The notes under the pieces were generated by a model. That model was not told where the DNA came from and ran no database searches. It saw nothing but the letters and a program-made list of their open reading frames with translations. A stretch of DNA of 64,000 nt, taken from IMG/VR virus record IMGVR_UViG_3300021379_000005, positions 1-64,000 of that record. The stretch is one strand, 5' to 3'. Shown here one piece after another: positions 1 through 64,000 of this stretch. Origin of the DNA: a virus (Duplodnaviria > Caudoviricetes). A program made the translations under genes and the position numbers. Numbering within the stretch: the first letter of the stretch is position 1; each line of letters starts with the position of its first letter.

Positions 1-1
1 C

Positions 2-889
2 AGCAGCCGGTGGCACATCACTGTAATAAAACATCTGTGTTCCTGTTGGATTCTGACTAGAAGTCCAAACTTCTTTAGATATTCTCACATAAGAACCAGA
101 AGCACCAGTGCCCGCATAATTTCCAGCAAATAAAAGTCCACCATCAACAGATTCGCCTAAAAACTGCACAGTGTAATGTGTACCCATAGAGGTAACATCT
201 CTGGAATACTGTGATGCCCAGTTGGATGGCCATTGACTATAACCAACTTTAAGTTGAAAGTGTGGGTCGTTTTCATTACTTGAACCGTTATCCATTCTGG
301 AAAGTGCTGGTTGATAATTGTTATTACCATATGACTTTCCCCAATAGTGATAACGTTTACTGTAATCGTCCGACCAACTATTTCCCCTTGCATTTGGTAT
401 TGAATTATCTAAATCAACACTGTCTTCTATTTCTTGCCAAGATGCGTTGTAAGCAGTCGAACCACTTTCCCAAACATGGGTTACTGCTTTTATTGACTGG
501 TCGTTATTAGTTAAAACACGCATTGCTCCACCAGTGTGGCCGCCCTCACCACTGGCCCCTGATTGGGACATATCGATCCATGGCGCTGGATCTATATAAT
601 TCTCATGGTTTTGTGTATTGTCACTAGGAATTGACATTCCTGTTTGTAATTTAGATAATGCAAGACTCTGCCCTACTTGTCCACCCGATGAGGACATATT
701 ATTATTATGTTTAGTTTCCCATGCAGTTGATGTCGAATCTTGATAGTTGATATATCTGTTAAATTGTGGAGTCAAACTAGTTTTATCGTGTTTCATTCCA
801 TCAAGCCAGAAACCATCATTTCCCGCCCTTGGGTCTTCAATAACGACTGGATAATTTGATCTTCCTTGGTAATCCCATACTTTTGCCAT
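2..889 (-). CDS. Putative fibre-tip/receptor-binding virion protein, 3'-truncated by the window edge and absent from the ORF track; paralogue of 10326-12140
   Basis: Manual translation from ATG at 889 gives MAKVWDYQGRSNYPVVIEDPRAGNDGFWLDGMKHDKTSLTPQFN...HYTVQFLGESVDGG...VPPAA, open to the edge, with GGAG just upstream. It aligns with VFEDINP..IYLESEGHNKSTLAPIFN, YSVQYIGMSTVDG and APTAAG of 10326-12140. Confidence 0.85.
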   Translation of the reverse strand, partial: MAKVWDYQGRSNYPVVIEDPRAGNDGFWLDGMKHDKTSLTPQFNRYINYQDSTSTAWETKHNNNMSSSGGQVGQSLALSKLQTGMSIPSDNTQNHENYIDPAPWIDMSQSGASGEGGHTGGAMRVLTNNDQSIKAVTHVWESGSTAYNASWQEIEDSVDLDNSIPNARGNSWSDDYSKRYHYWGKSYGNNNYQPALSRMDNGSSNENDPHFQLKVGYSQWPSNWASQYSRDVTSMGTHYTVQFLGESVDGGLLFAGNYAGTGASGSYVRISKEVWTSSQNPTGTQMFYYSDVPPAA

Positions 890-892
890 TTC

Positions 893-1138
893 TTATTCTC
901 CTGTGTGATCTTTAATTTCTTTGAACCATGCAACTGCTTCATCTATATTGGACCAATCTGCTCTGGAGCCGTCAGGATTAAATTTCCATGGTTGACTTAC
1001 TTCTAAATCGCCGTCAGAATTTGTTGCAGTAAAAACTCCATCATCTAATGCCACCACATATTCCGTGGCCACTTGTGTTGTAACTTCATCTCCGTTTTCA
1101 TCAATAGAAACAATATCTTTTATGATAGATACATTCAT
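893..1138 (-). CDS. Small acidic cassette protein (81 aa), possible fibre chaperone/adaptor; paralogue of 12153-12380
   Basis: AGGAG RBS and a late promoter lie upstream. Shares DE.G.E.T and QPW...DGSRA.W...DE.V.WFKE with the 75-aa ORF. Confidence 0.8.
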   Translation of the reverse strand: MNVSIIKDIVSIDENGDEVTTQVATEYVVALDDGVFTATNSDGDLEVSQPWKFNPDGSRADWSNIDEAVAWFKEIKDHTGE

Positions 1139-1171
1139 TTTTATCTCCTAATTTTTTTAAAATTTTTCTAC

Positions 1172-1179
1172 TATTTATA
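1172..1179 (-). promoter_or_regulatory. T4-type late promoter TATAAATA
   Basis: Exact tatttata on + in the intergenic gap 34 nt upstream of the 893-1138 start. Confidence 0.8.
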
Positions 1180-1185
1180 AATTGT

Positions 1186-3264: not shown

Positions 3265-3284
3265 GTTGTTCCTCTTTTATGAAT

Positions 3285-3292
3285 TATTTATA
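3285..3292 (-). promoter_or_regulatory. T4-type late promoter TATAAATA
   Basis: Exact motif 21 nt upstream of the 1186-3264 start, followed by a GAGG RBS. Confidence 0.8.
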
Positions 3293-3300
3293 ATCCGTTA

Positions 3301-5760: not shown

Positions 5761-5967
5761 TTAACTATCCGTCCATGATTGTGGGTCAGTTGGCCCAGAA
5801 GAACCACCCCCACCATAAAGGTTTTGAATAATTACTGGATCGAATGTTACATTCACTGCACTTCTTGTTTTATCTGCAGTTTTAAGTTGAAAACTATGAA
5901 CAACTGCTGTTCTCACCCTATCCGCTGTTTTTAAAGAATGTACTCCAACTAAAACTGCATCTGCCAT
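5761..5967 (-). CDS. Small virion-associated protein (68 aa) with Gly-rich C-terminal Q-S-W peptide
   Basis: Fills the gap exactly between neighbouring genes. Internal repeat VHS.(Q)LKTAD..R.AV; ends GGGGSSGPTDPQSWTDS. Confidence 0.7.
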   Translation of the reverse strand: MADAVLVGVHSLKTADRVRTAVVHSFQLKTADKTRSAVNVTFDPVIIQNLYGGGGSSGPTDPQSWTDS

Positions 5968-14093: not shown

Positions 14094-17000
14094 TTATCTC
14101 TCCATTAGTAACCAACCTTGAGTTGTGTTATAATAAACTAACCCAAATGCGGCCCTATCCGTTTCTATTATTAGATTATCTGCAGTACCTTGAATATTGC
14201 TTCCATTCCTATTTATGGTTATATTATTTATAGAGGCATTACCTGTCGCATCAATTATTCTAATTTCATCTCCTTGTGTTGGTGAAGATGGAAGTGTAAC
14301 AATAACCGCACTAGAACTACAATCAACAAACAGTTTATCACCAGCACTTGCAGTATAATCTGCAGATTGTTCTTGCCATTGTGGCGTAGATGTTGAATTA
14401 TTTTCTCCAGAAACACTGACCCACTGAGAATTGGTGCCATCGTTGTAATAAATAAGAAGAGTAGCATACTGACTATCAAACCACATATCACCAGCACTTG
14501 GTGATGTTGGTGCAGTATCAGATACTGTTACTGAGGCGCCTCCGCCACCCCCAGATAAGGAGGCACCAATAAGATTGACCCACTGTTCTGATGAACCATC
14601 ATCATAGCGGAAATATAATGAACCATCTGATGAATCAAACCAAAGACTGTTTACAACAGGATTTGTAGGTGCAGTGTCAGATGAAATAATTGGTGAAGTC
14701 GCACCTGATGGGTTTGATTGAATCCACTGTGACGATGTTCCATCATTGAAGTACACATACATCTTTGTGTTTGCGGAGTTGAACCAAAGGTCGCCAACAG
14801 AAGGAGAAGAAGGTGCGGTGTCGGATACAGAAACGGAAGCTCCACCTCCACCGCCAGAAGCAACATTACCCGGCTTCCAAACAGAATTTACGCTATCCCA
14901 AATAAGTGCCTGTCCATCTGTGGGTGATGTTGTTGTTAAATCTACATCCGTTAAATCGTCTAACGCAGACGGTACGGATGGTTTATTTGTTAAACTATTA
15001 TAGTCTCCGTCAAATGCATCTGTAATACCATAACCAGCGATAGTTGTTGGGGTTCCAGTGAGAGATGCCCAAGTTCCATCAAATACTTCTGATACATTTG
15101 CAAGTTCAATCCATGAACCACCGTGGGCATAATATGCCTTACCAGTTGCATGGACATGTGCAAACATTCCATGGTAAGATGCAGCTGAAGGTAAATCTCC
15201 AATAGTTGCATACACATTAGAGAACAGAACTTTATTAGTTCCTAAATCTAAATCTTGTCCTTCAACATGTGAGCGAACCCTTGCGTCTGTATAGTAAAGA
15301 TTTGTTCCTTCAGAAAGGTCAGTTGTAGATTTTGTCGTTAACCAAGAATCGGCAGTTGTATTAAAATCAGTAATTGCAAGTTTAGTTCCAATCAAGTTGG
15401 TAATTGTAGTTGCAAAGTTTGGATCATCACCAAGAGCCGCAGCAAGTTCATTAAGAGTATCTAATGTTGTTGGTGCAGAACTCACCAAGTTTGCAAGTTC
15501 AGTATCTACATATGAAACAGTTGCAAATGGTTGTGCAGCTCCACCACCAGTTGTATGTACTTGAAGAGCACCAGAATGTTCAGTGATAACAATACCACCA
15601 AGAGTAATACTATTTCCACTTAGATACAAATCTCTAAATTTATGAGTTGAACTACCCAAGTCATATGTTACATCTGTATCGGGAATAATATGTCCAGAAA
15701 CATCACCAAGTTTTGTTTGAACTCTGGAATCTGTGTAGTATAGATTTGTAGAACCTTCAGTTAAATCGTCCGTATCTTTTGTTGCAAAATCTGTGTTGAA
15801 GTCTGATGTTGCATAACCAGAAATGGTGCCAGGCACAAAATTTGTGCCATTAAATACAAGAGTTTGTCCATTTGTAGGTGCAGTTGTGGTTGTATCTACA
15901 TCCGTTAAGTCATCAAGAGAAGTTTGTCCTGCAGAATTTACAGAACCAGAAGCTTCAATCCACTGAGAGGACGAACCATCATTATAGTAAACATAAAGTC
16001 TGAGATTACTACTATTAAACCACAAGTCACCCTCAGATGGAGTACTTGGTGCTGCATCTGAAAGATGCACACTAGATGCAACATTTCCTGCAGCTTCGAC
16101 CCATTGTGATGAAGTTCCATCATTGTAGTAAATATAAGTTTTTAGTTCTGAAGAATCAAACCATAAATCTCCGTCACTTGGATTTGAAGGCGCAATATCG
16201 GAAACATCAATAGAAGAACCACTGGCGGCCGCACCAGGCACCCACTTACTATTCGTATTATCCCAAACAAGTGCCTGCCCATCCGTTGGTGTTGTGGTTG
16301 AAGTATCTACATCAGAAAGGTCATCAATAGAAGAACCAGAAACAATATTCGCAGCTGCGATTCTTGCATCAACTCTTGCATCAGTGTAATATAGATTTGT
16401 ACCTTCAGTTAAATCTGTAGTTGTTTTGCCAGCAAATGCAGAATTAAATCTTGTCTGAGTATAATAAAGATTTGTAGAACCTTCCGAAAGATTATCTGTA
16501 GTTAGGCCAGATAGATCTTGAAGATATCTTCCATCCAGACTTACAGTTGCAGCGGTGGATGCATCATCTCTAGTAAGAGTTAATGTTCCATTTGTAAATG
16601 TTGCACTATTAATTCTTGAAAGATTTGTATCATCAAATAGAGGACTAAAATCAATAGTAAATGTTGTTGCATCATCTCTAGTGAATGTTGCAATACCAGT
16701 AGTTCCATTTAATGTACCACTTACTAATCTTGCAAGATTTGTATCATCCAAGTAGAGAGATAAATCAATATTTGTTGTATTACCATCTTCATCTGTATAT
16801 GTCAGAACATTTCCTGCAATTCCAAGTGAAGTCAGTGTTTCTGTCGCAATTCCTTGTGCGGTTAAATATGATTGAACTCTTGCGTCTGTATAGTAAAGAT
16901 TTGTACCTTCAGAAAGGACAGTTGTGGATTTCGTTCCAAAGTCCGTATCAAAGTCAGAAGAGTCATATGGATTAGATGCAGTAATTCTAGCATCAACTCT

Positions 17001-20000
17001 TGCATCAGTGTAATAAAGATTTGTAGAACCTTCTGAAACATCATCAGTATTAGTTGGTAGTTCAGATACATTTGCAAGTTCTACCCACTGTCCATTATGG
17101 GCATAATATGCCTTTCCTGTACCGTGTACATGTGCAAACATGCCGTGGTAAGATGAAGCACTTGGCAAATCACCAGTATTTGCATAAACATTAGAAAATA
17201 AGATCTTATTCGAACCCATATCAAGGTCGGCGCCTTGGATGTGAGTTCTAACTCTTGCATCAGTATAGTAAAGATTTGTACCTTCAGAAAGGTCAGTTGT
17301 GGATTTCGTTCCAAAGTCCGTATCAAAATCTGTACTTGTATAACCCGAAATAGTGCCTGGTACAAAAGTTGTACCATTGAATATGAGAGTTTGTCCATTG
17401 GTTGGTGCAGTTGTAGTCGTATCCACATCACTAAGGTCATCAAGAACTAAGGCACCAATATTTGTTGTCAGTGAATCTATTTGACTTTGTAAATTTAAAT
17501 CTGCCTGTTCTCTGTCATATACTTCATCATCTAAATCTGAAGAAATACTTGCAATTTGTGCTGTGACATATGAAGTTGTAGCATATCCTGTACCAGACAA
17601 ATAAGAGGCAACTCTTGCATCAGTATAGTAAAGGTTGGTATTACCTTCCGTTAAATCGTCTGTGTCTTTTGTTGCAAACCGTGTGTCAAAATATGAATTA
17701 ATTTCATTACCAAGATTAATAAATCCAAAATTACTATTTCCAGCGTCATATAATAAAACATCTCCACTTGCTGGTGTATCAACTGCATCTACATCCGATA
17801 AGTCTTGTATACTTGCAGTATTAATACGAGTATCTGCATATGTGTTTACTTCAGTTGCAAAATCGACTGGTAGAAATTCACTACCATCATACAGAAGGAA
17901 ATCTCCAGTCGCAATTCCAGTTGTATTTACATCATTCAATACTCCAATATTTGCAGCAGCAACTCTAGCGTCCGCCCTAGCGTCTGTATAGTAAAGATTT
18001 GTACCTTCAGTTAAATCTGTAGTAGACTTTCCAGAAAAGTCTGTATCAAAATCAGAAGAATCATATGGATTGGATGCAGTAATTCTAGCATCAACTCTTG
18101 CATCAGTGTAATAAAGATTTGTAGAACCTTCGGAAATGTCATCGGTAGTTCCAGACAATTCTGATAATTGATCTTTTGTTGCAATTGCAGAATCGACATA
18201 GGATTTTGTGGCCGCATCAGATGGGTCAGAAGGCGTTCCAACATTATAAATTCTAAATGCATTTACATTGATTTTACCACCAGTGTTAGCTTCTAGTTCT
18301 AAGTCAGTCTGTCCGTTGTTTGCTGGTAAATATTTTTGTCCATAGAAGAATGGTTGGCCACTATTATTTTTGATTGCCATACCAGCTGAGCCAGTCGCAG
18401 TTCCGACACCAAAGTATGCGTTATTTGTTCTTAACTGTATTCTGTCTGCAGCTGCATTCGATTCAAGATATGTTTCAACTCTAGAATCAGTATAATAAAG
18501 ATTTGTAGAACCCTCAGACAAATCATCAGTAGTTTTATTTGCAAGTGAGAGATTAACACCTGTTTGAATTGCAATTCTTGCGTCAACTCTAGCATCTGTA
18601 TAATAAAGATTTGTTCCCTCAGTTAAATCGGTGGTTGTCTTACCAGTTAACCAACTATCAGCAGTTGTATTAAAATCTGCTGTTGCAAGTTTTGTTCCAA
18701 TCAAATTAGTAATTGTAGTACTAAAGTTTGGATCATCTCCCAAGGCAGCTGCAAGTTCGTTTAGTGTATCTAATGTAGTTGGAGAAGAATCTACTAAGTT
18801 TGCAACTGCAGTGTCAACATAAGTTTCTGTTGCAAATGCTTCTGTACTGCCACTTGTAGTTACCTCAAGGGCCCCATTATTGTCAGATAATTGTAAAGTT
18901 CCAAGATAGATAGAACTTCCACTCAAATAAATGTCTTTGAACCTATTTGTATTGCTACCCAAATCATAAGTAACATTTGTATCTGGAACGATACTACCAG
19001 AAAGATTCGATAGATAATTTTGTACAGAGGTATTTAATGATGCAGTAGTTGCTTGATTGTTTGAATCACCAATAAAGATATTACCGTCATTTAGATTAGG
19101 TACAGCATTTGTGCGTCCTGCACCCATAATAACGCCGGCGCCGTTGGATGCATGAACTTTTGTGACACGGCCTAAGTTTTGTAATAGATTACTTTCACCA
19201 ACTGGAGGGGTATTTGTGTAACCACCACCGACTGCAACATAAATTGTGTCTCCTTCGTTGAACGCACTTGTATCAACTCCAGAAATTTTACCCATATGGA
19301 TAACAAATCCAGTAGCACCTGATACTAAATCTTGTTCTAAAACACCAACCGCTGGCATTGTAGTTGAACTACTTGCATCAGCTGGTGCAATTGTCATTGC
19401 ATTGCCACTTGTTCCTGTTTGATAAACAGGTGTGCCTTTAAGAATAGTTGACCCAGTTTGGTTTGTTACTTCAGTATGAATTGTGTCTAAATTTTCAAAC
19501 GATAACGTACCGCTGCCATCTGTCATAATAACTTGGCGATTTGTACCATCTGCAACTGGCAGACTATAACCATCTGCACTAATATTAGTAATATTAAATG
19601 TATTAGCGTTTAAGTTACCACCAAGTGTTGGAGTTATATCTTCAACAATTTCGTTTATACTAACAGCCTGAACCCTAGCATCTGTATAGTAAAGATTTGT
19701 AGAGCCTTCTGGTAAGTCGTCCGTAGAACCTAATGAAGATGCCGCAATTCTTGCATCAACTCTTGCATCCGTATAATAAAGATTTGTAGAACCCTCTACT
19801 AAATCGTCCGTGTCTTTTGTTGCGAATCTTGTATCAAATCTTGTATCAGTGTAGTAAAGGTTATTATTACCTTCTGGGATTGCATCCGTATCCTGTGCAA
19901 TACCCCCTGACGCCTCGACCCATTGTGCTGAGGAACCGTCATTGTAATATATGTACAGTTTAAGGTTATTATCGTTAAACCAAAGGTCGCCGTCTGAAGG

Positions 20001-23000
20001 ACTGCTAGGGGCGGTACTAGAAGATTGTACAGATGCACCACCATCTCCTGCCGCCTCAACCCACTGCGAGGAAGTTCCATCATTATAATAAATGAATGTT
20101 TTTAATCCAGTAGAATCAAACCACAAATCACCATCATTTGGATTGGATGGTGCAACATCACCAACAGTAATCGCAGCAATATCTAAAAGTCCAGTTGCAT
20201 CAGTAAAATCAGATAAGTCTGTAGGTGTGTTTGATAAATCTGCATACGAACCAGAAAATGCAACATTTGCAAGATTCGCAATCGCCCAAGTATTTACTCT
20301 TGCATCTGTATAGTAAAGATTTGTAGAACCTTCAGTAAGTCCATCTGTATCTTTTGCGGCAAATGCGGTATCAAATCGTGCTTGAGTATAATATAGATTT
20401 GTTATCCCTTCTGCAATATTGTCGGTTGTTTTTGCTGCAATATTCGCATCTACTCTTGCATCTGTATAATATAGATTTGTACCCTCTGTTAAATCAGTAG
20501 TAGACTTTGCTGAAAACGCAGTATCAAATCGTGATTGAGTATAATATAAATTTGTACCTTCCGCCAAATCAGTAGTGGTGTGATTGCTAATATCTGAAAC
20601 TTGTCCAGTTATATTTGCATTAATATCTTTGTTTGATGAAAATTCATCAGTGGTAGAGTTATAAGTAAAGGTCGCAGAACCATCTGTACCCAAATCAATC
20701 GTAATCCCACCACCATTGGCAGCAGCTGCATTTGTTGCCCCACTTCCCAATACAATATTTAAATCGTCAACTTCTACCGTAGTAGAGTTGATGGTTGTTG
20801 TAGTGCCATCGACCTGTAGGTCACCAGCAATTACAACCTTTCCTGTATTGTCTCCTACCCCTGCAGGGTCAATAGTTAATGTGGATGGGCCTGCAATATA
20901 ACCAGTGGTTGTGATATTTCCATATGTTCTATTACCACTTATATAAGTCGCAACTCTTGCATCAGTATAATATAAATTGGTAGTGCCTTCTGTAATATCA
21001 TCAGTTGTTTTTGATGCAATATTTGCATCAACTCTAGCATCAGTATAGTAAAGATTTGTACCTTCAGTTAAATCGGTTGTCGATTTTGTAGCAAGTCTTG
21101 CATCAAATCTAGCATCAGTATAGTAAAGATTTGTACCTTCAGTTATGTGGTCTGTTGAAGATGGTATTGAGAAAACACCAGTAGAAGATGCATACCCAGC
21201 GACACCTGTTGTTACACTGACTGCATTTCTTACTCTAGTATCTGTATAATACAGATTTGTAGAACCTTCTGGAAGGTCATCTGTACTCGTTGGAAGTTCA
21301 CTATTGTTTGCAAGTTCTATCCAGTTTCCAGCATGGGCATAATATGCCTTTCCAGTACCATGGACATGAGCAAACATACCATGGTAAGAAGATGCATTTG
21401 GTAAGTCTCCTAATGCAGAGTAAACATTAGAGAATAAAATTTTATTTGAACCAAGGTCTAAATCTTGTCCTTCGACATGTGAACGAACCCTTGCGTCTGT
21501 ATAGTAAAGATTATTACCTTCGGTTAAATCGGTTGTTGTTTTCGCTGCAAATGCAGAATCAAAATCTGCCTGACTAAACGGAGCTTGCGGAATCCAAGAT
21601 GTTCCATTCCATACAAGTGCATCACCAGAAGTAGGAGAACTTGCATTTACATCTGTCAAGTCATTAAGTACTAAATTGTCAATTTGACTTTGTAGATTTA
21701 AGTCCGCCTGTTCTCTATCGTAAATCTCATCATCTAAATCGGATGAAACGGATGCGATCTGTGCTGCAACAGCAGATGTGGTAGTGTAACCATTATTATT
21801 AAGATATGTTGCAACTCTAGTATCCGTATAGTAAAGATTTGTACCTTCGGTTAAATCGGTTGTTGTTTTCGCTGCAAAGTTTGAATCGACTCTAGCATCC
21901 GTGTAGTAAAGGTTTGTTCCTTCAGAAAGGTCTGTAGTGGATTTTGTTGCAAGTCTTGTATCAAATGCAATATTTACTCTTGAATCTGTATAGTAAAGAT
22001 TTGTAGAACCTTCAGAAAGATCATCTGTGGTGTTGTTTGATAGATTAATTCCATCGATACTAGATGCTAGTGCAATAGTAAGTGTATTATTTACATCATC
22101 ATAAATAACAGAAATATCTTCGCCTGCTTGAATTAAAGCTGCGACTCTATCATCAACTCTTTCTTCTGTGAAATATAAGTTTGCACCTTCCGCAAGATCA
22201 GTTGTAGATTTTGTTGCCAGTCTTGTATCAAATCTTGCTTCTGTATAGTAAAGATTTGTACCTTCAGCAAGGTCTGTCGTTGTTTTTTGACTTAAATCTA
22301 AATTCGAACCTATTTGAAGTGCAACTCTTGTATCAACTCTAGCGTCAGTGTAATAAAGATTATTACTACCTTCTACAACATCATCAGTTGTTCTATTTGC
22401 AAGGAATGTGTTTACAGTCCCTTCGACAATATCATCCGTATCGAATTCAGTAAAATCAATTTCTACATTTAAAAGATTGCCAGCATCATCATAATTTTTA
22501 GTTAATCCTTTACCATCAACAAAAAGATTTGCAACTCGATCATCTACTCTTTCATCTGTATAGTAAAGATTTACAGTTCCTTCGTTTATATCGTCTGTTG
22601 TTCTATTTGATAGGAAAGTATTAACAGTACCTTCGACAATATCATCAGTATCGAATTCTGAAAAGTCAATTGCAATGTTTAGAAGATTTCCGGCATCATC
22701 ATATGACTTTTGAATTCCTTTTCCATCAACAAAAAGATTTGCAACTCTATCGTCTACTCTTTCGTCTGTAAAATAAAGATTTGTTCCTTCTGGAATATCA
22801 GAAGTTGATCTATTTGCAAGGAATGTGTTAACTGAACCTTCAATGATATCATCAGTATCAAATTCACTGAAGTTTATTTCGATGTTTAGAAGATTTCCGG
22901 CATCATCATAATTTTTCTGGATGCCAACGCCATCGACAATAAGAGCTGCAACCCTATCATCTACTCTTTCTTCAGTGAAATATAGATTGGTTGTGCCCTC

Positions 23001-43681: not shown

Positions 43682-46600
43682 TTAACTTCCTAGTGTCGAC
43701 CCAGGCGCTGTTCCAGGCGTTACATCACTGTATCTAATACTAGAACCAGTAACTTGCATAAACACTCTCATACCATTTCCATTCGGTAATGTTGCAGACA
43801 TTCCTTCATACTTTCTGGCATTTTTTCTCCAAATATACTTAACCCCATCGGGGCCTTCATGTCCTGCATATCTTGTAACTTCATTAGGAGAAGTTGAAGA
43901 AATTGAGGCAGGAACAAAAGAACCACCTCTAAATTCTTCGTTTACTCCATCCGAATCATCATATTTGTTTATTTCTACATGTCCTGACTGAGTTGAGAAA
44001 TCTGCAGAAGAAATACAAATAATATCAAGTTCACTTTGTGGATAATAGAATCTTTGAGTTGTTATCTGAGTTGGGAACGAGAAAACAAAATTTCTATCTT
44101 GTGTGATAGAAAGTTGTTCCATCGGATTGATAACAGCATGAGAATCAATTTCGTGCATTGTTGCAGAAACGTGGAAATCCCATGGTTTTAATACATCTTG
44201 TTCTCTAACAACAAATCTATTGATTGTTTTTACTTCATTCATGTTTCTTTCTGGGAAATCTCTATCCTCTGGAATAGTTATGATGTATGCACCCTGAGCA
44301 GGATTTGAAGTAACATAATTTATCAAAGAAATTGTCAATTCTGAACCCGATCTTGGAGCAACTTTGAAATAAAATGTATGATTGAAGAAATCGTACATAT
44401 ATTCATTTCTCAAAGTATTTGGTGAGGAGAATACAGGGTCACCAGGCAACTTATTTTGCAATAGATAATTACCTGTTGTCGTAACTGCTTGTGCAGTAGT
44501 CAAACTAAAAGTTGGCGATGATGGATTTGATGCATGTTGCGAGAAAAAGTTTCTTCCAGTTGAATTATTTGAAGTTCCCGAATCAATTGTATATGGAGTT
44601 GTAAGCGTAATTTGACTATTATTCCACTCAACAGAGTTACCATCTACAGATGGGAATTTAAAGTCTGTACCAAGCGTGTCAACCCCTGCGGCGTCTAGAG
44701 ATTCAATAAATCTTTGAACTGTACTTGGGTCGCCATTGTTAACCCAATCTTCATACGTTAAAATATATGCATTACTATCTCTAATTACCTCAACATCATC
44801 CAATGCAACAACCAAAGATTCAAAAACTTTGTCCATATTCCCGACAGGAGAGCCAAATAGAATATCAAGTAATGCAGAATCCGCTTCTTTATAATCAACC
44901 AAACCAACAGATTCTGTTGCAGCAGGAACACCTGTTCCACTTTGAGATGCATCTTTAAATGTAGACATTCTTTCAATAATGTTTTGTGGAAACGCAATAT
45001 TTTCGGAGAATGAAATTCCTGCAGTGTTTCCAAGAACATAATTAGCCGAAATAGGAGTAGTTGCAGTTAACAAAGAACCACTTCTGTCATAATGTTCTAA
45101 TACTGGAGATCCTCCACCAACCGTGACTTGTTCAAGAGCAGCGGGAGATGCGGAAGCCCCAGCAGCAAGTGAGACATCTTTTCTTCTTGGTAATGAGTTA
45201 AAACCTTGAATTTGAAGGTCAAATACTGGGTCAAGTATCTGTTCTGCCCATGTTGAACCAGAAAGTCCATCGGTTGGTACAATAATCCACTGTGGTGATC
45301 CTGATGGATTTACTGTAAAGTCTACCATAACATCACCAGAACTAGATGTTCCTTCTTCAATGGTTCCCTGTGCAGGGACAATTGGAGGGCCAGCAGCATA
45401 TGTCTGTGTTGTTCCAACAATATTTGCAGCAGACCAACCACTAACAAGTAGTTCGCCATTTGAAGAATTGTATGAAACAATACGTCCACCACCTGTTTGT
45501 GCATCAGATTCCAGAATATATTTACCAGGCGTCAAAGTTTCCCCTGCGATTGCGCCAGGCGAGTTTGTAACATCCACTTGCAGTCTGTATAGTGTTTGTC
45601 CCCAAAGATTTTGATTTTCTGACATCGCATTACTAGAAAAACCTCTAGTTAAATCTACTCTTATATCGGTGTGATATAATTGTCCAAGTGAGTTTTGTGT
45701 ATTACCACCAGTTGCGTATCCAAGTGCAGTAAAGTCAATAGCATTGACAATGCCATTGAATAGTCCACCATCTCTGTTAACATAGATAGTTGGTGCTTCT
45801 GATCTGAAAACTTGTCCAAGTGAGTTTTGAATTGGGGCAGGTTTACTCAAATCATCCAAATCTTGTGATGCAAAATATGGTGTCAAACTAGAAACATCTA
45901 CAGGACGTTTGCATGGTGAATATACACAATGCACTGGAGATTTTTCTGTAAACTCTGGTTGGCCAGTTGTTTGGTCAACATGTCTCTGTACTACTAACCA
46001 TGCATAATCATCATCTTGATCTACTGATGCATGGTCAAATAAGAAAAGTCCCAAACCATGGTTTGTAACCGTAAGTCTATAAGACATTGGATATGTTGTT
46101 GAGATTGAGTCTTCTACTTGAGTTTTTCTAAACCACTGTGATTTTGCCTTACTCATTTGTAAGATTGCACCTCTACCGACCATTGGAGAGGTATATACAT
46201 CGCACAATTCGCCGGGCTCTCTATAGACAGGATTTTTAATACCATCACGGCCTTGTGGTTGTGAAATCGTAAAGTCATCTTGCAATTGATAAGCAGTTGC
46301 AACATTTACTTTTAAGTATTTTTCATCATCATTCCACTCAAATCTCATTCTCCACTTCTGTGGTTTTCTGACTGCAGAAGGAGAGAGACTTGATGCAAAA
46401 CTTAAGTTTGTATCTGATAATAAATCGACACCTTTGTTAGACTCAACTAAGAATCCATTTGTAATTCTTCTCAATGCATCTTTAACATCTTCTTTATCGT
46501 TACTAACTGGAGTAGGATATATCAAATCGAATGGTCTTTGGAAGTTATCATTTTCTTGGAATGTAAGCATCCAAGATGTGCCTTCTTCTGTACTTGCCAA

Positions 46601-47960: not shown

Positions 47961-50012
47961 TCATACTGCTGGTGTTCCTACAGGGTCATATGTGTCAAGA
48001 TTGATATCACTATTAAAGATATATTGTCCATTTACTAAGACTAGTAATCTCATTCCATTTCCAAACGCCATGGTTGAACGCATTCCTTGGTATCTTCTTT
48101 TATCTACATTAGTACCATTGTATAGATATGTTGTCATTGGCACATTACTGGATTCTGCTACTACTTCTGCAGAAGAAAAACAAATCATATCCATCTCTTC
48201 TTTAGGATACATATATCTTTGTGTCGTAAGTCCAGTTGGGAAAGTGATAATAAATCTATTTTCATCTGTGATGGCTAATTGTTCTAATGGATTGATAACT
48301 GCATTACTATCTGTCTGATGTTTTGTTGCAAATTTATGCACATCAGTTGGTTTTAATACATCAAATTCTCTTACAACAAATCTCCAAATATTTTTTGCTT
48401 GCCATTCATCCGCAAGATAGTCTTCTCTATCGTATGGACTCAATATATAGAATGTTTTTGAATTGTCCATGTTTGATAAATTGTATATATTTCCCGCTTC
48501 GTCAAATACTGTGTCTACCAAATCTTCTGCAGTCTGTAGGTTTGCTGCTTGATTGGAAAAGTAAATTCCAGCATCAGAAGAATAAAAACTTTCTCTAGAA
48601 CAAGAGTACATGCAGTGAACAGGGAATTTAGACGCTTCGTCAGTTCTTGGAAGTCCTGATTCATTACTTGATGTTCTTTGAATACAGAACCATGCATAAT
48701 CATCTGCCTGATCTGCTGCAGCATCATCATACATATAAAGAACAATACCTTTTTCTGTCATAGTGAGTCTATACGAAAATGGGTATGTTCCTTGCAGTTC
48801 TGCATTCATTTTTGGAAATCTTTTGAACCAACCATAACCCTTTCTTTTGTTTCTAAATCTAATTGATCTGTTATTGATATATTTCTTATAATCTGTTCCA
48901 GAAGGGGCAGCTGCCTGATTAAAAGAAGAACCTGTATCTGGCATATAGAAGGTTGCAAGTGGGTACTCCGAAAAAGTATGAACTGTAGAAGAACCTGTTC
49001 CACCAGCACTAATATCTGCCTGATCTGCCGCAGCCTTGTCCAAGTATACTGGATAGTAATAACCTTGAGTTACACCATAAGTACCAGTATCTGTGTTTTG
49101 TCCAAAGACAAAATACGGCCCTGTATTTGCAACATCTGCAGTAATAGTTACATCATCAAAATGCAAGTCTGCTAGTTCTCCCGGCATTCTTATAATAGAA
49201 GTATCAACAGTTGAACCATTCTCTAATGTAATTAATCCATCGGTCGTAAGTTGTGGATTTGAAATAGTTCCATCTGTACTAATCTGATTAGATGTGCCTA
49301 CATTTACCTTAAACCATCCATACATGGGATTTGGAATACCGACTGTACTTTCCCAACCACTATTTAAAATCCCATTATAACTGTAGCCTGGATGGTATTC
49401 TGGTTGATACTCTGCTTCTAATACAGTATTTCCTTCTTGGTATTGTGGTCTTCCTTGTGATGCCATTCTAAGATTCAATTGATATAATTCATTATTAAAT
49501 TCTCTATCACCAGTTGTACCAACACCAGCACCCATTAAACGTGGTCTAAGGTCGAATTCAAATCTTATTCTATAATTTTGATCAATACCTCTCGCAACTG
49601 CACCAGACTTAGGCAGAATTTGATTTGTAGTCTGAAAAATCATAACATGTTGCTCTGGATTGGTTCCATCACCAACCTCACTGAAGTTTGCAACACCAGC
49701 GTATACACCACTACCACCACCATTTGCAGAAGATGGGCGGTTTAATGATATCTGACTAAAAAACTGTTTTGTTACCTGAGTTGTAACTAGAGTTTGAGTC
49801 TCATCAATTAATTCATTTCCAGCGATTGGTTCACCAGCAAATAATGGCCATTCTCTTGCCAAATCTTCAGCAAGAACGCCCATAAATCCACCACTAATAC
49901 TACCATCATTACTATTTACGCCGCCGTTGCCGATTACAGAAGTAAACGAATTTCTTTGACGAGATATTCCAAAATTAGGAAAGTAGTTTGGGTCTATATT
50001 TCTCTGTGCCAT
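47961..50012 (-). CDS. Virion structural protein, paralogue family member 1, closest to the minimal scaffold (683 aa)
   Basis: FGISRQRN, LAEDL, YRIRF, KVNVGT, RMPGEL, YPFSYRLT, DDYAWF.IQR, PVHCMYS, RFVVRE.DVLKP, INPLEQL and FGNGMR blocks. Possible GATAAATA promoter variant at 50042-50049. Confidence 0.85.
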   Translation of the reverse strand: MAQRNIDPNYFPNFGISRQRNSFTSVIGNGGVNSNDGSISGGFMGVLAEDLAREWPLFAGEPIAGNELIDETQTLVTTQVTKQFFSQISLNRPSSANGGGSGVYAGVANFSEVGDGTNPEQHVMIFQTTNQILPKSGAVARGIDQNYRIRFEFDLRPRLMGAGVGTTGDREFNNELYQLNLRMASQGRPQYQEGNTVLEAEYQPEYHPGYSYNGILNSGWESTVGIPNPMYGWFKVNVGTSNQISTDGTISNPQLTTDGLITLENGSTVDTSIIRMPGELADLHFDDVTITADVANTGPYFVFGQNTDTGTYGVTQGYYYPVYLDKAAADQADISAGGTGSSTVHTFSEYPLATFYMPDTGSSFNQAAAPSGTDYKKYINNRSIRFRNKRKGYGWFKRFPKMNAELQGTYPFSYRLTMTEKGIVLYMYDDAAADQADDYAWFCIQRTSSNESGLPRTDEASKFPVHCMYSCSRESFYSSDAGIYFSNQAANLQTAEDLVDTVFDEAGNIYNLSNMDNSKTFYILSPYDREDYLADEWQAKNIWRFVVREFDVLKPTDVHKFATKHQTDSNAVINPLEQLAITDENRFIITFPTGLTTQRYMYPKEEMDMICFSSAEVVAESSNVPMTTYLYNGTNVDKRRYQGMRSTMAFGNGMRLLVLVNGQYIFNSDINLDTYDPVGTPAV

Positions 50013-63100: not shown

Positions 63101-64000
63101 TGTTTTAATAATACCGTCTTGAACGGTAATAATTTCTATAAAGTTATCTGTTGTTGGAGTATCTAATGTTCTTTTAGACCATACGAGATTGATTCTATAT
63201 CTATCGGCGCCAGGAGCGTTATAGTTTGTTGTTCCCTGTGCGTTATCAAAAAGAGATGGATCTTCATTTGCACTTACAACGGTTTCTTGTATTTCAAAAC
63301 CAATTTTATAACTAGGAGTGTCATCATACTTGTCTAGAATTACACTTTGCGATTGGTTCTTGACCATAAACCCCTGAGTATAATAAATTCCCTCTTCGAC
63401 AAATGCAATAGAACCCTTACCCAAAGGATTTGCGTGATCAGCACTAAGAGCAACAGTTGCGATTAAATTTAAACCATCATCATTTGTTGAAGTCAGAACC
63501 TCTCCTTCCACAAAGGAAGAAGTATCACCCTCTTTTAAATTTATAGTGTTACCGTTAACAACAAAATCAATTCCATTTTCATCGTCAATTTCAAGTGTAA
63601 CGCCGTCTACCACTCTTTGTCCACCAGCAACACCATCAAGATATTTTACAAATAAGGTTGTTGGTTCATCATCACTGTCAATCTGTGCATCTTGATTCAG
63701 ATCAACTGCATCAGCATAAGAAATGACAATAGCACGAATCCCTGTCTTATCCCCTTGAATTACTTTACCAACAAATTCTGCAGCGGTAGTAAGGCCTTCT
63801 GCAAGAGTCACTTTAATATAAGGAACAGCAACATCAACAGCAGAACTGCCAGGGATAACCATGGAACCTTCTTTAAAGAAGTGGTCTCCCATATTTGCAA
63901 TTTGTTGTTGTAAAATTGTTTGTTGTTGTGTTAATTCTCTCGCCTGCACAGAATTTCCAGGCTTATATAATACCCTCAAATACCCTTTGTCGATATCATA
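57101..64000 (-). CDS. VrlC-like / DUF4815-like giant virion structural protein (more than 2292 aa, 5'-truncated)
   Basis: The frame is open to the right edge (YDIDKGYLRVLYKPG..VQARELTQ.Q.ILQ.QI). Motifs NYNAPGADRY, LARRTYDESGDY, RRYTMRDIGKL..RI..LEYYTSL.LLE, DRFKNGF.V.NF, VNPF and DPLAQSF are typical of this T4-like phage family. Confidence 0.88.
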   Translation of the reverse strand, partial: YDIDKGYLRVLYKPGNSVQARELTQQQTILQQQIANMGDHFFKEGSMVIPGSSAVDVAVPYIKVTLAEGLTTAAEFVGKVIQGDKTGIRAIVISYADAVDLNQDAQIDSDDEPTTLFVKYLDGVAGGQRVVDGVTLEIDDENGIDFVVNGNTINLKEGDTSSFVEGEVLTSTNDDGLNLIATVALSADHANPLGKGSIAFVEEGIYYTQGFMVKNQSQSVILDKYDDTPSYKIGFEIQETVVSANEDPSLFDNAQGTTNYNAPGADRYRINLVWSKRTLDTPTTDNFIEIITVQDGIIKTHVRNTEYSVITDVLARRTYDESGDYTVRPFNLDIREYFKENGNGGVYTMKNFEFDTEVAAKDFALKNFADEDGMVDQNGNGLAHTVSALELIQFSDQNLDSTGLKYYPGSSHQFLVDAVRNYLALGVESGKAYVRGYEITKTATTYIPYKRSRENYQVNNHYIPVDLGPYIYISDAKGLPLIDEEVKLVNMNISPVINEDYTVVTSNLDDADTAYFQPVTYDEDLTFFAGGGTNLGANAYGIDVIATAKVKAVEYFSDSDDDAIDDNYGTSTFRPSNTSVETGIWKIFLYDIEYEVNPRTNVPYTMLDARSIVSTEKVVPTTLGSSIYRFGANVLTVMSLSDVQGQFTLKSLIYDRYDRDVRAINYYYNSADQFLLVKNLNTGNGLSTESGVLPSATFVTNELINEAIASGSAGTDTTSFDGNASADMTGTQARITGKFVLLSDGGASIVDTGKRFLQTVRFVDDESGRETVDTQYDVLKVYEDQVVTANGQIVLTATDDNSFFISTQSLYLAFDRADLNSSVGEIGRITSISFSSDRRTATLNVTNLPAGTTGVTVYAPIKKTSSREKIKTLRENQLHLPYTLVDAIGQTIGQTDYDNVNDANNDTSLSYDVDLLGSNSSVATGVVNSSIPTGANNDLILSVSNFQLPHSDVYEIKKIYDTCNVNNTSYRISIESNDRKFLHEMTEADFEFALKAYTFYEATGASPFSVDLDHTVYPTLASIQSQLTVDGTVNPFKEEIEELWLSNVGIETPAEVPVKINDITDRYTLFSGQRHSIIQLGELELKAGTLPCGGRPIIIYSYFEHGAGDYASVDSYVNIPYHKIPSFEGVRLHSALDFRPAAVYQQLSGYPYGKGVVSGISDYPIDASAISADMRIYFGRADKLYMDKFGNINVKYGAPSETPVFPTDPEDGMVLYTLETLPYTGVPKDVRAKMIDNRRYTMRDIGKLDKRISNLEYYTSLNLLEKETKDLLVTDENGLDRFKNGFVVENFTGFGTANVYDSDFNASMDTGKGELRPFFTTKNIPMHLDVINSEGFEVSGRWATLPYTSELLIEQRKSSKTVNVNPFAIFSFKGSMVLVPSTDNWHDDPKYLDTITINERGNTDNFEELAQRSGILGTVWGSWETTWTGVSNETTSGPVNTTESSGNFDRTVTTTTRTWNDTGTRSRAGVTTSLSESWTPVTTDKLVSSEQVPFIRTRDVYFKATGMKPNTKLFAFFDNTPVSDYVTPIKTLDITNVPPATAQYIKNNRNIFADQYGELKLRGQSTAHEVFVADIDYLDATSLKVYVLENVPGKKNTSFSLGEVLFLVERDGKSHNMGSFPNEGIVGGSTLRSDSAGTVYGNFSIPNDNQTPNDDDLKFRTGERTFKLCDQQNGNLDDSDTDTSATYTARGIIETRQKTTVNTRTVEIVDTTTTQSEDVVSELRSDPTTTFGNWRQVRGWGDPLAQSFLVDVEGGAFITSAEIFFSTKDEVVPVTLQIRNMVNGYPGQYVLGEKMLDPRQDLIQISDDGSLETIFTFDEPVYLEEAKEYCLVLIANTQGYRVHVATLGQEALDGSGIISEQPYAGVFFKSQNASTWTAEQMEDLKFTISRAKFDINRDSSLYFTNSEIDVGMSDINVMERIFDDNSMFVHKDSSLITFKVNDSSGCVPTSFWQPNGYNYVTLKNFHGTYDQYSAADLNGSHLVVATTYNSFTIDMRGFFYPEGVQTPRIAHGGTIPSVDSVFTPASNTFTQFRQKKPASWCTNVKYDLMKPNITSVELAGTGISMKFKALTGTSQDSTEAPGVKDLSFRGITPNQNYTFNRPMMVADNYNETLFDTSSNSLDKKSLIWKVDLVSNKDNLSPIIDLERIAAVLVSNVTNSAESVPAGVRGHVNTGFIDETNPHGGSAATKYITREIKLDQSSTSLKVLGSVYRPDMTDVDFYYKIKTSPDQNFEKLDYVLLDRPTVYGKASKDVSDYKEFDYEVRNLPEFNSVSIKIVLKSKNSSVVPKVRDFRVIALAT

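What the first reader, a model, noticed from the sequence alone, without database searches (positions are those of the whole stretch)
1..64000. Restriction-like sites CCGG, CCNGG and GGNCC are tolerated almost only when they overlap GGC/GCC: footprint of a sequence-specific DNA modification
Seen: every Pro-Gly codon pair I checked (about 35, across most large genes) is written so that CCNGG sits inside GCCNGG or CCNGGC. Either Gly is GGC or the preceding codon ends in G, even when that needs rare codons for this AT-rich genome (ACG CCT GGA ACA GCG CCT GGG at 43700-43720; ACG CCT GGT at 45524-45532). About 30 Gly-Pro pairs use GGC/GGG CCN, and GGWCC was seen only at 950, 24743 and 51566. All CCGG I found (about 25, e.g. 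7-10, 22897, 41340) have a 5' G or a 3' C; I saw no ACCGGT or TCCGGA despite abundant Thr-Gly and Ser-Gly. Established: phages purge host R-M sites, and 7-deazaguanine (dPreQ0) in phage CAjan is placed at GA and GGC motifs. Inference: the phage modifies G in GGC (DpdA-type) or C in GCC (an MTase), so sites containing that triplet are protected and all others are purged. GA does not appear protective here, so the specificity may be new.
Basis: partly seen in the sequence, partly recalled or inferred. Interest (0 to 1): 0.85.

Follow-up and report, generated by a model that had tools for sequence, protein, structure and literature searches.

The report
GCC-shielded restriction sites in marine phage
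In this marine T4-like phage the short DNA words CCGG and CCNGG survive only where they overlap the triplet GCC, which is the imprint of a DNA modification that shields those sites, made by an enzyme that is not yet identified.

Summary
In the window 26 of 26 CCGG and 45 of 45 CCNGG have a 5' G or 3' C. In the whole 128,880-bp record the figures are 40 of 40 and 87 of 87. Protein-preserving codon shuffles expect 65 and 83 unflanked sites and 0 are seen. Flanked CCGG is at expectation and flanked CCNGG is enriched.

The record is a Melnitz-like T4-type marine phage (Kyanoviridae). The rule holds in Melnitz, in a complete 204-kb relative and in about 240 related contigs. It fails in 11 other Kyanoviridae.

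The best reading is a modification of GCC/GGC, probably G-C*-C. GGCC is freed, GGWCC is purged and AGCC is half-freed.

- DpdA is excluded: no TGT gene in any record searched.
- Melnitz carries a C5-methylase/TET pair of the published GpC[C/T] type.
- This lineage has two N4-type methylases instead.
- The CCWGG rule co-occurs with a Mom-family gene in 4 of 4 Mom+ against 0 of 11 Mom- genomes.

The writer is therefore unresolved.

The parts
1..64000 (.). Window-wide footprint: CCGG and CCNGG occur only as GCCGG/CCGGC and GCCNGG/CCNGGC. GGWCC is nearly absent and GGSCC and GGCC are kept.
7..10. It is one of the 26, all of which are flanked.
   Evidence: Position. Flank table.
22897..22900 (.).
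41340..41343 (.).
43700..43720 (-). Two in-frame Pro-Gly pairs (CCT GGA, CCT GGG), each preceded by a codon that ends in G. They lie in the 1401-aa structural gene at 43682-47887.
Evidence: ORF.
950..954 (.). Surviving GGWCC, one of 4 in the window. The others start at 24743, 26484 and 51566.
   Evidence: positions; contexts. Expectation for the whole record is 69.5 against 5 seen.
14094..23216 (-). 3040-aa structural gene, one of about ten giant minus-strand virion genes that carry most of the Pro-Gly CCNGG sites.
   Evidence: ORFs; tail and baseplate PHROG hits in neighbouring genes; 40 of 45 sites in frame 0 of minus-strand genes.
47961..50012 (-). 683-aa protein with a tail-sheath-like PHROG hit, which marks the window as the virion module of a myovirus.
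   Evidence: (phrog_12249, E 1.2e-50).

Best explanation
The window is the tail and baseplate module of a T4-like marine phage of roughly 215 kb (Kyanoviridae, Melnitz-like). Its DNA has been purged of many short nuclease target words. Pro-Gly dipeptides force CCNGG into genes. There, and at CCGG, the phage keeps the word only where it overlaps GCC on either strand.

The most likely cause is a post-replicative, phage-borne modification of the middle base pair of GCC/GGC, probably the cytosine (G-C*-C). That base is the outer C of GCCGG and GCCNGG and the inner C of GGCC. One modified strand is enough to block cutting at CCGG and CCNGG.

The most likely writers are sequence-specific cytosine methyltransferases. 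In relatives (Melnitz, G014) the candidate is a C5-methylase, in Melnitz paired with a TET dioxygenase of the type shown to make G-5mC/5hmC-[C/T]. In this lineage the candidates are two N4-type methylases (TSPPY and TSPPD motifs) that sit between gp46 and the peptidase/CobS genes of a sister contig.

Shown: the counts, the gene content and the co-occurrences. Inferred: that a modification exists, which base carries it and which enzyme writes it.
For: 1. The flank rule is absolute and far from chance. Flanked sites are not depleted: CCGG 40 against 37-38, CCNGG 87 against 40.

2. Two separate pressures share one exception. In related lineages CCGG is tolerated unflanked (108 unflanked against 277 flanked in 46 loci), while CCNGG stays flanked (2 against 243). 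One shield explains this better than two nucleases that each have H...D flank specificity.

3. The response of RGCY words follows the number of GCC strands. Ratios are ours / Melnitz / G014, against HTVC008M / S-PM2:
- GGCC (two GCC strands): 1.68 / 1.10 / 1.68 against 0.28 / 0.22
- AGCC (one strand): 0.52 / 0.44 / 0.80 against 0.27 / 0.25
- AGCT (none): 0.44 / 0.36 / 0.61 against 0.36 / 0.40

4. GGWCC cannot overlap GCC and is purged: 5 against 69.

5. S-PM2 purges CCGG in the flanked context too (0 against 39.4), so the flank does not protect a phage that lacks the writer.

6. CGCG (0 against 56) and CGWCG (1 against 56) are not rescued by an adjoining GCC. This places the modified base at the middle position.

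7. Melnitz has DNA polB, then a C5-MT (PF00145, E 7e-55), then Tet_JBP (E 3.6e-11). This is the layout of clade II/B in PMC8256090, whose methylases act on GpC[C/T]. Melnitz shows the rule: 15 of 15 CCGG and 72 of 72 CCNGG.

8. 80 loci with that methylase show CCNGG 175 flanked against 5 unflanked.

9. The sister contig G010 of this lineage obeys the rule (13 of 13 and 33 of 33). It has two PF01555 methylases with TSPPY and TSPPD motifs. For the 217-aa TSPPD protein (P0001), the best solved relatives are N4-cytosine methylases.
Against: - No writer lies in the window or in its 128,880-bp record. PF00145, PF01555, PF02086 and TGT are all absent. The N4-type methylases come from a sister contig that shares no sequence with the record and is joined to it through two others: 97.6% identity with G006 over 666 bp, 99% in gp15 protein with G001. 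G006 and G001 are mostly 91-97% nucleotide-identical to the record (86-98% over all blocks of 1 kb or more).
- The three lineages of the clade carry non-homologous methylases. These would all need GCC specificity.
- A GpC[C/T] enzyme should also free AGCT, and AGCT stays depleted in Melnitz (0.36).
- ACCTGC followed by C is only weakly rescued: 3 of 7 survivors, and 7 against 72 overall.
- S-SSM7 shows the CCWGG rule (10 against 199 unflanked, 196 against 70 flanked) with no PF00145 or PF01555 gene. It does not rescue flanked CCGG (0 against 52) or GGSCC (0 against 49).
- The rule tracks Mom more cleanly than it tracks any methylase (see rival 1).
- No chemical data exist.
Confidence: 0.45

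Rival explanations
1. The Mom-family enzyme is the cause. Two versions are possible. (a) The Kyanoviridae Mom homologues put their adduct on the cytosine N4 or guanine N2 of GCC/GGC instead of on adenine in SAS. (b) Carrying Mom itself makes unflanked CCWGG harmful, for example through a nuclease that reads momylated CCWGG with H...D flanks, while the CCGG and GGCC effects of the Melnitz clade come from their methylases.
For: - The record has a full-length Mom gene at 93945-94742 (PF25680, E 3.3e-48). It is 30% identical to Mu Mom, and the catalytic Ser124 is conserved.
- Across Kyanoviridae the CCWGG rule is present in 4 of 4 Mom+ genomes or lineages: this one, Melnitz, G014 and S-SSM7.
- It is absent in 11 of 11 Mom- genomes: HTVC008M, S-PM2, S-CRM01, P-SSM4, P-RSM4, Syn1, P-SSM7, S-RSM4, DSL-LC02, MbCM1 and Syn19.
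- S-SSM7 is a separate genus. Its Mom is only 24-27% identical to ours, and it has no C5 or PF01555 methylase.
- Syn19, isolated on the same host strain as S-SSM7, has 58 of 65 CCWGG unflanked. The host alone therefore does not impose the rule.
- Apart from a 31-residue tail-fibre match that I read as spurious, Mom is the only Melnitz ORF found in all four rule+ genomes, missing from HTVC008M and S-PM2, and not also common in Mom- phages.
- It is 72.6% identical between this phage and Melnitz, against 47% for gp15 and 52% for DNA polymerase.
- All 80 Mom-bearing loci obey the rule: CCNGG 547 flanked against 8 unflanked.
Against: - Mu Mom modifies adenine in SAS (PMC13219725, abstract and passages). 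GCCGG and GCCGGC hold no adenine, and no further flank position is constrained.
- In S-SSM7 both orientations relative to the central A are tolerated. My hand tally's table for 141 sites gives 83 with a 3' C on the A strand only, 44 with a 5' G only, 9 with both and 5 with neither.
- Phages with the closest Mom homologues outside the family (42% identity) show no shield. Edwardsiella phage ET-ABTNL-9 has CCWGG 0 against 17 and 0 against 12, and GGCC 4 against 57. Psychrobacter phage Y8A has 2 against 11, 3 against 12 and 19 against 81. Mu shows no flank effect (29 against 51.5 and 29 against 53.4).
- Only two independent Mom+ lineages exist in the sample.
- Arg111 of Mu is Lys in all five non-Mu homologues aligned.
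- S-SSM7 has its own 234-aa NPPH methylase of unknown target.
Confidence: 0.28
2. There is no modification. The nucleases met by these phages recognise HCCGGD and HCCNGGD themselves, so G:C-flanked sites are simply not targets. GGCC is not restricted in their hosts.
For: 'Either flank suffices' is logically the same as a symmetric site that needs H and D on both sides. Many other 6-bp palindromes are purged one by one, for example GTGCAC 0 against 11.4, TACGTA 0 against 14.2 and GACGTC 0 against 7.2. The hosts are clearly rich in restriction.
Against: - It needs two different enzymes with the same unusual 'not G' flank rule, since CCGG and CCNGG pressures separate among lineages.
- I recall no such specificity for any restriction enzyme. 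This is from memory; REBASE could not be consulted.
- It does not explain the graded release of GGCC, then AGCC, then AGCT.
- It does not explain why Syn19 and S-SSM7 differ on one host.
- S-PM2 purges flanked CCGG as well.
Confidence: 0.1
3. The shield is written by a host enzyme: a GCC-specific methylase that is conserved in the hosts of this clade and acts on phage DNA in every infection.
For: The Melnitz paper states that the host H5P1 also encodes a type II DNA methylase (PMC9004378, passage read). This would explain why phage lineages with different methylases share one rule.
Against: S-SSM7 and Syn19 were isolated on the same Synechococcus strain and differ completely. No host genome was examined here. 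I know of no conserved GCC methylase in these hosts; this is from memory.
Confidence: 0.07
4. A DpdA-type 7-deazaguanine replaces G in GGC.
For: I did not check that paper. The counts alone cannot tell G in GGC from C in GCC.
Against: No TGT/DpdA-family gene (PF01702) at E <= 0.01 in G000, G001, G006, G010, G014, Melnitz, HTVC008M or S-PM2. The control found it in 14 of 14 cellular genomes. FolE, QueC, QueD and QueE were not searched.
Confidence: 0.03

Closest known systems
Phage C5-methyltransferase/TET (5mC to 5hmC and beyond) clusters acting on GpC[C/T] (Burke et al. 2021, PMC8256090; abstract and passages read)
   Same: The target triplet G-C*-C. Melnitz has the gene order DNA polymerase, C5-MT, TET, then a further gene. 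The proposed role is evasion of restriction. The modified base is the C that follows G, which is the position the counts point to.
   Different: This lineage (G000, G001, G006, G010) has no PF00145 and no Tet_JBP gene. GCT shows no sign of shielding, since AGCT stays depleted. That paper reports no genome footprint of tolerated and purged sites, as far as the passages I read show.
Mom of phage Mu: tRNA-Gly-dependent N6-carbamoylmethylation of adenine in SAS (PMC13219725; abstract, outline and passages read)
   Same: A full-length Mom-family gene is present. Ser124 is conserved. It is a late post-replicative anti-restriction modification. It co-occurs with the CCWGG rule in Kyanoviridae.
   Different: The shielded word GCC holds no adenine. 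Mu itself shows no flank effect at CCWGG. The homologues have a C-terminal extension of about 50 residues and Lys in place of Arg111.
Classical avoidance of restriction sites in phage genomes
   Same: Strong depletion of many 4-6-bp palindromes against a protein-preserving null: CGCG, GGWCC, CGWCG, GTGCAC, TACGTA and others.
   Different: Here avoidance depends on a one-base context that marks overlap with a second motif. The purged set therefore reveals the specificity of a shield as well as of the nucleases.
dPreQ0 (7-deazaguanine) at GA and GGC in phage CAjan
   Same: The GGC motif.
   Different: No DpdA/TGT gene anywhere in the clade. GA shows no protective effect.

Membership tests
Phage C5-MT/TET GpC[C/T] hypermodification system | C5 cytosine methyltransferase gene (PF00145) | tested here: not met
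   Absent from G000, G001, G006 and G010, which together close this lineage's genome circle. Present in Melnitz (E 2e-56) and G014 (E 2e-41).
Phage C5-MT/TET GpC[C/T] hypermodification system | TET/JBP dioxygenase next to the methylase | tested here: not met
   Among 8 records, PF12851 was found only in Melnitz. A TET hit lies beside the methylase in 65 of 80 methylase loci.
Phage C5-MT/TET GpC[C/T] hypermodification system | Modified cytosine in GCC and GCT | tested here: inconclusive
   The sequence footprint fits GCC. No footprint is seen for GCT (AGCT 0.36-0.61). The chemistry cannot be tested here.
Mom family (momylation) | Full-length Mom/GNAT domain | tested here: met
   PF25680, E 3.3e-48, residues 3-214 of 265, profile positions 3-201 of 202. 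PDB 8bv8, E 4e-13.
Mom family (momylation) | Catalytic residues Arg111 and Ser124 of Mu Mom | tested here: inconclusive
   Ser124 is invariant in the 6-sequence alignment. The Arg111 position is Lys in all five non-Mu homologues. I mapped the residues from the S124A crystal sequence.
Mom family (momylation) | Target is adenine in an SAS context | tested here: not met
   This applies to the footprint only. The shielding word GCC/GGC holds no adenine, and SAS-containing sites such as GGWCC, GTGCAC, CACGTG and unflanked CCWGG are purged. The enzyme's real target cannot be tested here.
N4-cytosine DNA methyltransferases (PF01555 type) | Methylase domain with an SPPY-type motif IV and a glycine-rich SAM motif | tested here: met
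   Found in sister contig G010, not in the window's record. The 444-aa protein has TSPPY plus VLDTSMGWG. The 217-aa protein has TSPPD plus DPFMGSGTT. PF01555 E values are 1.7e-6 and 1.4e-19. For the 217-aa protein the best solved relatives are N4-cytosine methylases 8s9m/8s9n (E 5e-9), though adenine methylases also score. The 444-aa protein has no solved relative.
N4-cytosine DNA methyltransferases (PF01555 type) | Recognition sequence includes GCC | not testable with these tools
   No characterised close relative was found. The 444-aa protein has no match in Melnitz, G014, HTVC008M or S-PM2.
DpdA / 7-deazaguanine DNA modification | DpdA (TGT-family) transglycosylase gene | tested here: not met
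   PF01702 found in 0 of 8 records. The control found it in 14 of 14 genomes.
DpdA / 7-deazaguanine DNA modification | preQ0 synthesis genes (FolE, QueC, QueD, QueE) | not tested
   Not searched. None is named in the Melnitz annotation tables that I saw.
Restriction-site avoidance | Depletion against a null that keeps proteins and codon usage | tested here: met

The most novel reading that the evidence does not exclude
A Mom-family, tRNA-dependent GNAT enzyme of marine T4-like phages has changed its target. It marks a base of GCC/GGC (cytosine N4 or guanine N2), or in some other Mom-dependent way makes unflanked CCWGG lethal. On this reading the genomes of two unrelated Mom-bearing lineages (the Melnitz-like clade and S-SSM7) have been rewritten around that mark, and the lineage-specific methylases are accessories.
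Probability: 0.25. Interest if true: 0.85.

Novelty: new variant of a known kind. Interest (0 to 1): 0.62.

Why it matters
The counts alone give the specificity of an unseen DNA modification (GCC, middle base). They also list the nuclease targets that these abundant ocean phages meet. One isolate, Melnitz, is in culture, so both predictions can be tested directly.

The footprint is clade-wide: about 240 contigs, two complete genomes and one cultured isolate. I found no report of it. The searches turned up nothing, and the Melnitz paper mentions only 'a type II DNA methylase'.

The result gives a sequence-only way to find modified motifs in uncultured viruses. It links the published GpC[C/T] methylase/TET chemistry to a fitness effect in nature. 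It raises a sharp open question: why does the CCWGG rule follow a Mom gene whose known chemistry cannot touch GCC?

It also suggests that SAR11- and OM43-type phages face much more restriction than their streamlined hosts would lead one to expect.

Tried and rejected
1. Cyanobacterial NRPS/PKS cluster, suggested by the row of giant genes. Rejected: 0 Pfam families in 8 large proteins, tail and baseplate PHROG hits, and no HIP1 or CGATCG.

2. General GpC protection. Rejected: CGCG 0 against 56, AGCT 100 against 228, GTGCAC 0 against 11, TGCGCA 0 against 6.8.

3. GGCC-methylase overlap. Rejected: the base at position -2 of tolerated sites is G in only 3 of 46 and 19 of 113 oriented sites.

4. 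A longer motif around tolerated sites. None was found.

5. ACCTGC plus C as an independent test of the shield. 3 of 7 survivors are followed by C. Weak and inconclusive.

6. A second flank rule at ACGT. In this record 87 of 97 survivors are AACGT/ACGTT. In Melnitz the purged set is YACGTR, GACGTC, CACGTC and AACGTT. This reads as several 6-bp targets, not a shield.

7. Finding the writer by walking off the contig ends. The circle closes through G006, G010 and G001 with no C5-MT, TET or TGT. Two PF01555 methylases were found instead.

8. SNase-like nuclease as a partner of Mom. It is shared by the four rule+ genomes but also found in 8 of 11 Mom- phages tested. Rejected.

9. Host-imposed CCWGG rule in S-SSM7. 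Syn19, from the same host strain, does not show it.

10. S-CRM01, whose methylase is 39% identical to that of Melnitz. It shows no site avoidance at all, so it is uninformative.

11. Mom footprints at AGCT. S-flanked AGCT is a little better tolerated in Mom+ genomes (0.62-0.88) than in Mom- genomes (0.52). These are hand sums. The planned null for S-SSM7, and for strand asymmetry at CCAGG, could not be run.

12. Tools and sources not used or not available.
- Supplements of the papers were not seen. Those of PMC8256090 hold the contig list and methylase logos. They might show whether Melnitz-like contigs were among those assayed and how strong the C over T preference is.
- Not used: structure prediction, complex prediction, sequencing-run tools, the large protein searches, and the metagenome and genome contig scans.

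13. Partial sampling.
- Seven Mom- phages were sampled at 40 kb each, out of 168-194 kb.
- Syn19 was sampled at 35 of 175 kb.
- S-CRM01 was sampled at 40 of 179 kb.
- HTVC008M, S-PM2, S-SSM7, Melnitz, G014, Mu, ET-ABTNL-9 and Y8A were counted whole.

Full report
**What the window is**

All large ORFs lie on the minus strand. They encode giant virion proteins of 1297 to 3040 aa. PHROG hits are to tail sheath, baseplate wedge and tail fibre proteins, and the giants have no Pfam hit.

The window is the first half of a linear virus record of 128,880 bp, rated 79% complete. The rest of the record encodes gp32, gp59, PhoH, a PD-(D/E)XK nuclease, an alternative oxidase, 2OG-Fe(II) oxygenases, curli-type genes, a CHASE2 cyclase and a Mom-family protein at 93945-94742, minus strand.

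By the Mom protein (72.6% identity), the closest cultured relative is Methylophilales phage Melnitz. Melnitz is 141,548 bp, belongs to Kyanoviridae and infects an OM43 strain.

Sister contigs extend both ends of the record:
- G001 is mostly 91-97% nucleotide-identical (86-98% over all blocks of 1 kb or more). It adds 9.7 kb beyond position 1 and ends in neck genes and gp15.
- G010 carries the same gp15 at 99% identity. It runs on through terminase, sheath, portal, capsid, gp46, clamp, DNA polymerase and RNR.
- G006 overlaps the other end of the record at 93-96% identity. It also overlaps G010 at 97.6%.

I put the composite circle at roughly 215 kb. That is my estimate from these overlaps, not a computed assembly.

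**The observation**

In the window 26 of 26 CCGG and 45 of 45 CCNGG have a 5' G or a 3' C. In the record the figures are 40 of 40 and 87 of 87.

Two kinds of null agree.
- Dinucleotide shuffles of the window expect 31 HCCGGD and 52 HCCNGGD.
- 200 shuffles that permute synonymous codons inside each gene expect 65.5 +/- 6.9 and 83.4 +/- 6.5 in the record. No shuffle fell below 43 and 68.

Flanked CCGG is at expectation (40 against 37). Flanked CCNGG is twice expectation (87 against 40).

Of the 45 CCNGG in the window, 40 are in-frame Pro-Gly pairs. A Pro-Gly pair cannot avoid CCNGG, so the flank is the only freedom left. In 31 of the 45 sites the coding strand has a C right after the site, which in an in-frame pair means the Gly codon is GGC. 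In the other 14 only the base before the site, the end of the preceding codon, is G. This is my hand tally's table.

GGWCC is 5 against 69.5 and GGSCC is 100 against 38.

**Other purged words**

- CGCG 0 against 56
- CGWCG 1 against 56
- ACCTGC 7 against 72
- GTGCAC 0 against 11
- TACGTA 0 against 14
- ACGT 97 against 236
- AGCT 100 against 228
- GATC 264 against 451

The phage is under heavy and varied nuclease pressure.

**Why a shield at GCC**

1. Nothing beyond the one flanking base is constrained.

2. The pressures on CCGG and CCNGG can be separated.
- In 46 loci of related lineages CCGG is often unflanked (108 unflanked against 277 flanked). CCNGG stays flanked there (2 unflanked against 243 flanked).
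- In the complete relative G014, CCGG is 10 against 96 unflanked and 135 against 78 flanked. CCNGG is 1 against 128 unflanked and 143 against 59 flanked.
- One common exception for two pressures argues for a property of the DNA, not of two nucleases.

3. GGCC always holds GCC on both strands and is freed in this clade. Its ratios are 1.68, 1.10 and 1.68, against 0.28 in HTVC008M and 0.22 in S-PM2.
- AGCC/GGCT holds GCC on one strand and is half-freed: 0.52, 0.44 and 0.80 against 0.27 and 0.25.
- AGCT holds none and is not freed: 0.44, 0.36 and 0.61 against 0.36 and 0.40.

4. GGWCC cannot overlap GCC and is purged.

5. S-PM2 purges CCGG completely, including the flanked context (0 against 39). 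The flank therefore does not protect a phage that lacks the writer.

6. CGCG and CGWCG are not rescued when GCC abuts them by one base. The marked base is therefore the middle one. That is the outer C of GCCGG and GCCNGG and the inner C of GGCC.

**Spread of the rule**

- Melnitz: 15 of 15 CCGG, 72 of 72 CCNGG and 0 GGWCC.
- 80 Mom-bearing loci (711 kb): CCNGG 547 flanked against 8 unflanked; CCGG 210 against 8.
- 80 loci with the Melnitz-type methylase (668 kb): CCNGG 175 against 5; CCGG 52 against 9.
- Sister contigs of this lineage all obey the rule.
- HTVC008M has 117 of 147 CCNGG unflanked and S-PM2 has 231 of 286, both at expectation.

**Candidate writers**

DpdA is out. No TGT-family gene was found in 8 records.

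Melnitz has DNA polymerase B, then a C5-methylase, then a Tet_JBP dioxygenase. Burke et al. describe this layout for clade II/B and show that such methylases act on GpC[C/T] and that their TETs make 5hmC there (PMC8256090, passages). For Melnitz this is a near-direct explanation.

The methylases are not conserved across the clade, however.
- G014 has a C5-MT only 38.6% identical to that of Melnitz and no TET. It is flanked by an Asn-synthase-like protein and a SAM-methylase.
- This lineage has no C5-MT and no TET in any of the four contigs.
- In the same island, between gp46 and the peptidase/CobS genes, this lineage has two PF01555 proteins with TSPPY and TSPPD motifs. SPPY is the classical motif IV of N4-cytosine methylases; that statement is from memory. 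The motifs themselves were printed, and the Pfam hits are.
- The 444-aa protein has no relative in Melnitz, G014, HTVC008M or S-PM2.

**The Mom correlation**

Melnitz ORFs were compared with this lineage, G014, HTVC008M, S-PM2 and later S-SSM7. Mom is the only gene that is present in all rule+ genomes, absent from the two whole rule- genomes, and not also common in other Mom- phages. A SNase-like nuclease passed the first filter but occurs in 8 of 11 Mom- phages, and a 31-residue tail-fibre match looks spurious.

S-SSM7 is a Synechococcus phage of another genus.
- Its Mom is distant (E 2e-33 to the family, 24-27% identity to ours).
- It has no PF00145 or PF01555 gene.
- It has CCWGG at 10 against 199 unflanked and 196 against 70 flanked.

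Nine further Mom- Kyanoviridae have 57-91% of their CCNGG unflanked:
- seven phages sampled at 40 kb each
- S-CRM01, sampled at 40 kb
- Syn19, sampled at 35 kb and isolated on the same host strain as S-SSM7

The score is therefore 4 of 4 Mom+ against 0 of 11 Mom-, with two independent Mom+ lineages.

Evidence against Mom as the writer:
- Mu Mom marks adenine in SAS (PMC13219725), and GCC has none.
- Both orientations around the central A are tolerated in S-SSM7 (83, 44, 9 and 5; hand tally).
- Mu shows no flank effect.
- The two phages with the closest Mom homologues outside the family (42% identity) purge flanked CCWGG and GGCC as well.
- S-SSM7 does not rescue flanked CCGG (0 against 52) or GGSCC (0 against 49).
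- S-SSM7 has a private 234-aa NPPH methylase of unknown target.

Iyer et al. note that Mom domains of jumbo phages are often fused to restriction-fold nucleases (PMC7824862, passage). I saw no such fusion here: the protein has 265 residues, and 3-214 of them are Mom domain.

**Verdict**

The idea of a GCC/GGC-directed shield is well supported by internal logic and by a published enzyme specificity in a cultured relative.

The writer in this lineage is not settled. I give 0.45 to cytosine methylases, 0.28 to a Mom-linked cause, and the rest to nucleases with intrinsic flank specificity, a host methylase or DpdA. The decisive experiments are simple because Melnitz and S-SSM7 are in culture.

**Limits**

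- There are no chemical data.
- The writer candidates of this lineage come from sister contigs, not from the record itself.
- Several control genomes were only sampled.
- Gene calls for the nulls were my own greedy ORF calls (93% coding).
- The last planned nulls were lost with the script machine.
- Paper supplements and REBASE could not be consulted.

Noticed in passing
Whole genomes of HTVC008M and S-PM2 (loci L088, L282-L286; L089, L287-L294); 35-40 kb samples of 8 other cyanophages: All RGCY words (AGCT, AGCC/GGCT, GGCC) are depleted to 0.22-0.40 of the codon-shuffle expectation in Mom- Kyanoviridae. Raw GGCC counts are 0-7 per 35-40 kb in 7 of the 8 sampled phages; DSL-LC02 is the exception with 37. 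This looks like pressure from a CviJI-like RGCY nuclease in the ocean.
   Followed up: partly
Record G000, Melnitz, G014, HTVC008M, S-PM2: GTGCAC and GACGTC have 0 copies in all five genomes (expected 11-19 and 6-10). CACGTG is near 0. This avoidance is shared across hosts as different as OM43, SAR11 and Synechococcus.
   Followed up: no
Record G000, whole; window included: The triplet GCT/AGC is depleted in almost every context (0.63 overall; GCTTA 20 against 85, TAGCT 23 against 102). TGCA, and above all TGCAA, is enriched (1053 against 780; 786 against 520). No explanation so far.
   Followed up: partly
Record G000 / window: Surviving ACGT sites are almost all AACGT/ACGTT (87 of 97). In Melnitz, AACGTT itself is 0 against 48. 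This probably reflects several 6-bp targets.
   Followed up: partly
S-SSM7 whole genome (L306-L311, L326-L330, L298): GGCC is tolerated only as HGGCCD (97 against 129), while GGGCC/GGCCC is 0 against 49. This flank rule runs opposite to the one in the finding.
   Followed up: no
G014:C1:20270-24500 (locus L269): Between gp46 and the peptidase/CobS genes lie an unknown 501-aa protein (28% identical to the Melnitz gene after TET), an Asn-synthase-like protein, a C5-methylase and a SAM-methylase. This may be a different cytosine hypermodification cluster without TET.
   Followed up: no
G000 118995-124797 (L003/L004): A CHASE2-adenylate cyclase, a FecR-domain protein, a curlin-repeat protein and CsgF occur as in Melnitz and HTVC008M. 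There is also an alternative oxidase at 105215-105781.
   Followed up: no
G000 80114-85584, plus strand: A small island on the opposite strand starts with a TnsA-like/restriction-fold endonuclease at 80114-80557 (PF08722, E 2.4e-22).
   Followed up: no
G000 as a whole: CheckV rates the record 79% complete. The overlapping sister contigs imply a circle of roughly 215 kb, so the record is nearer 60% (my estimate).
   Followed up: partly
Edwardsiella phage vB_EtaM_ET-ABTNL-9, record positions 71883-72656 (L296:280-1053): A 257-aa Mom homologue (42% identical to the one here) lies in a stretch with no annotated feature.
   Followed up: no
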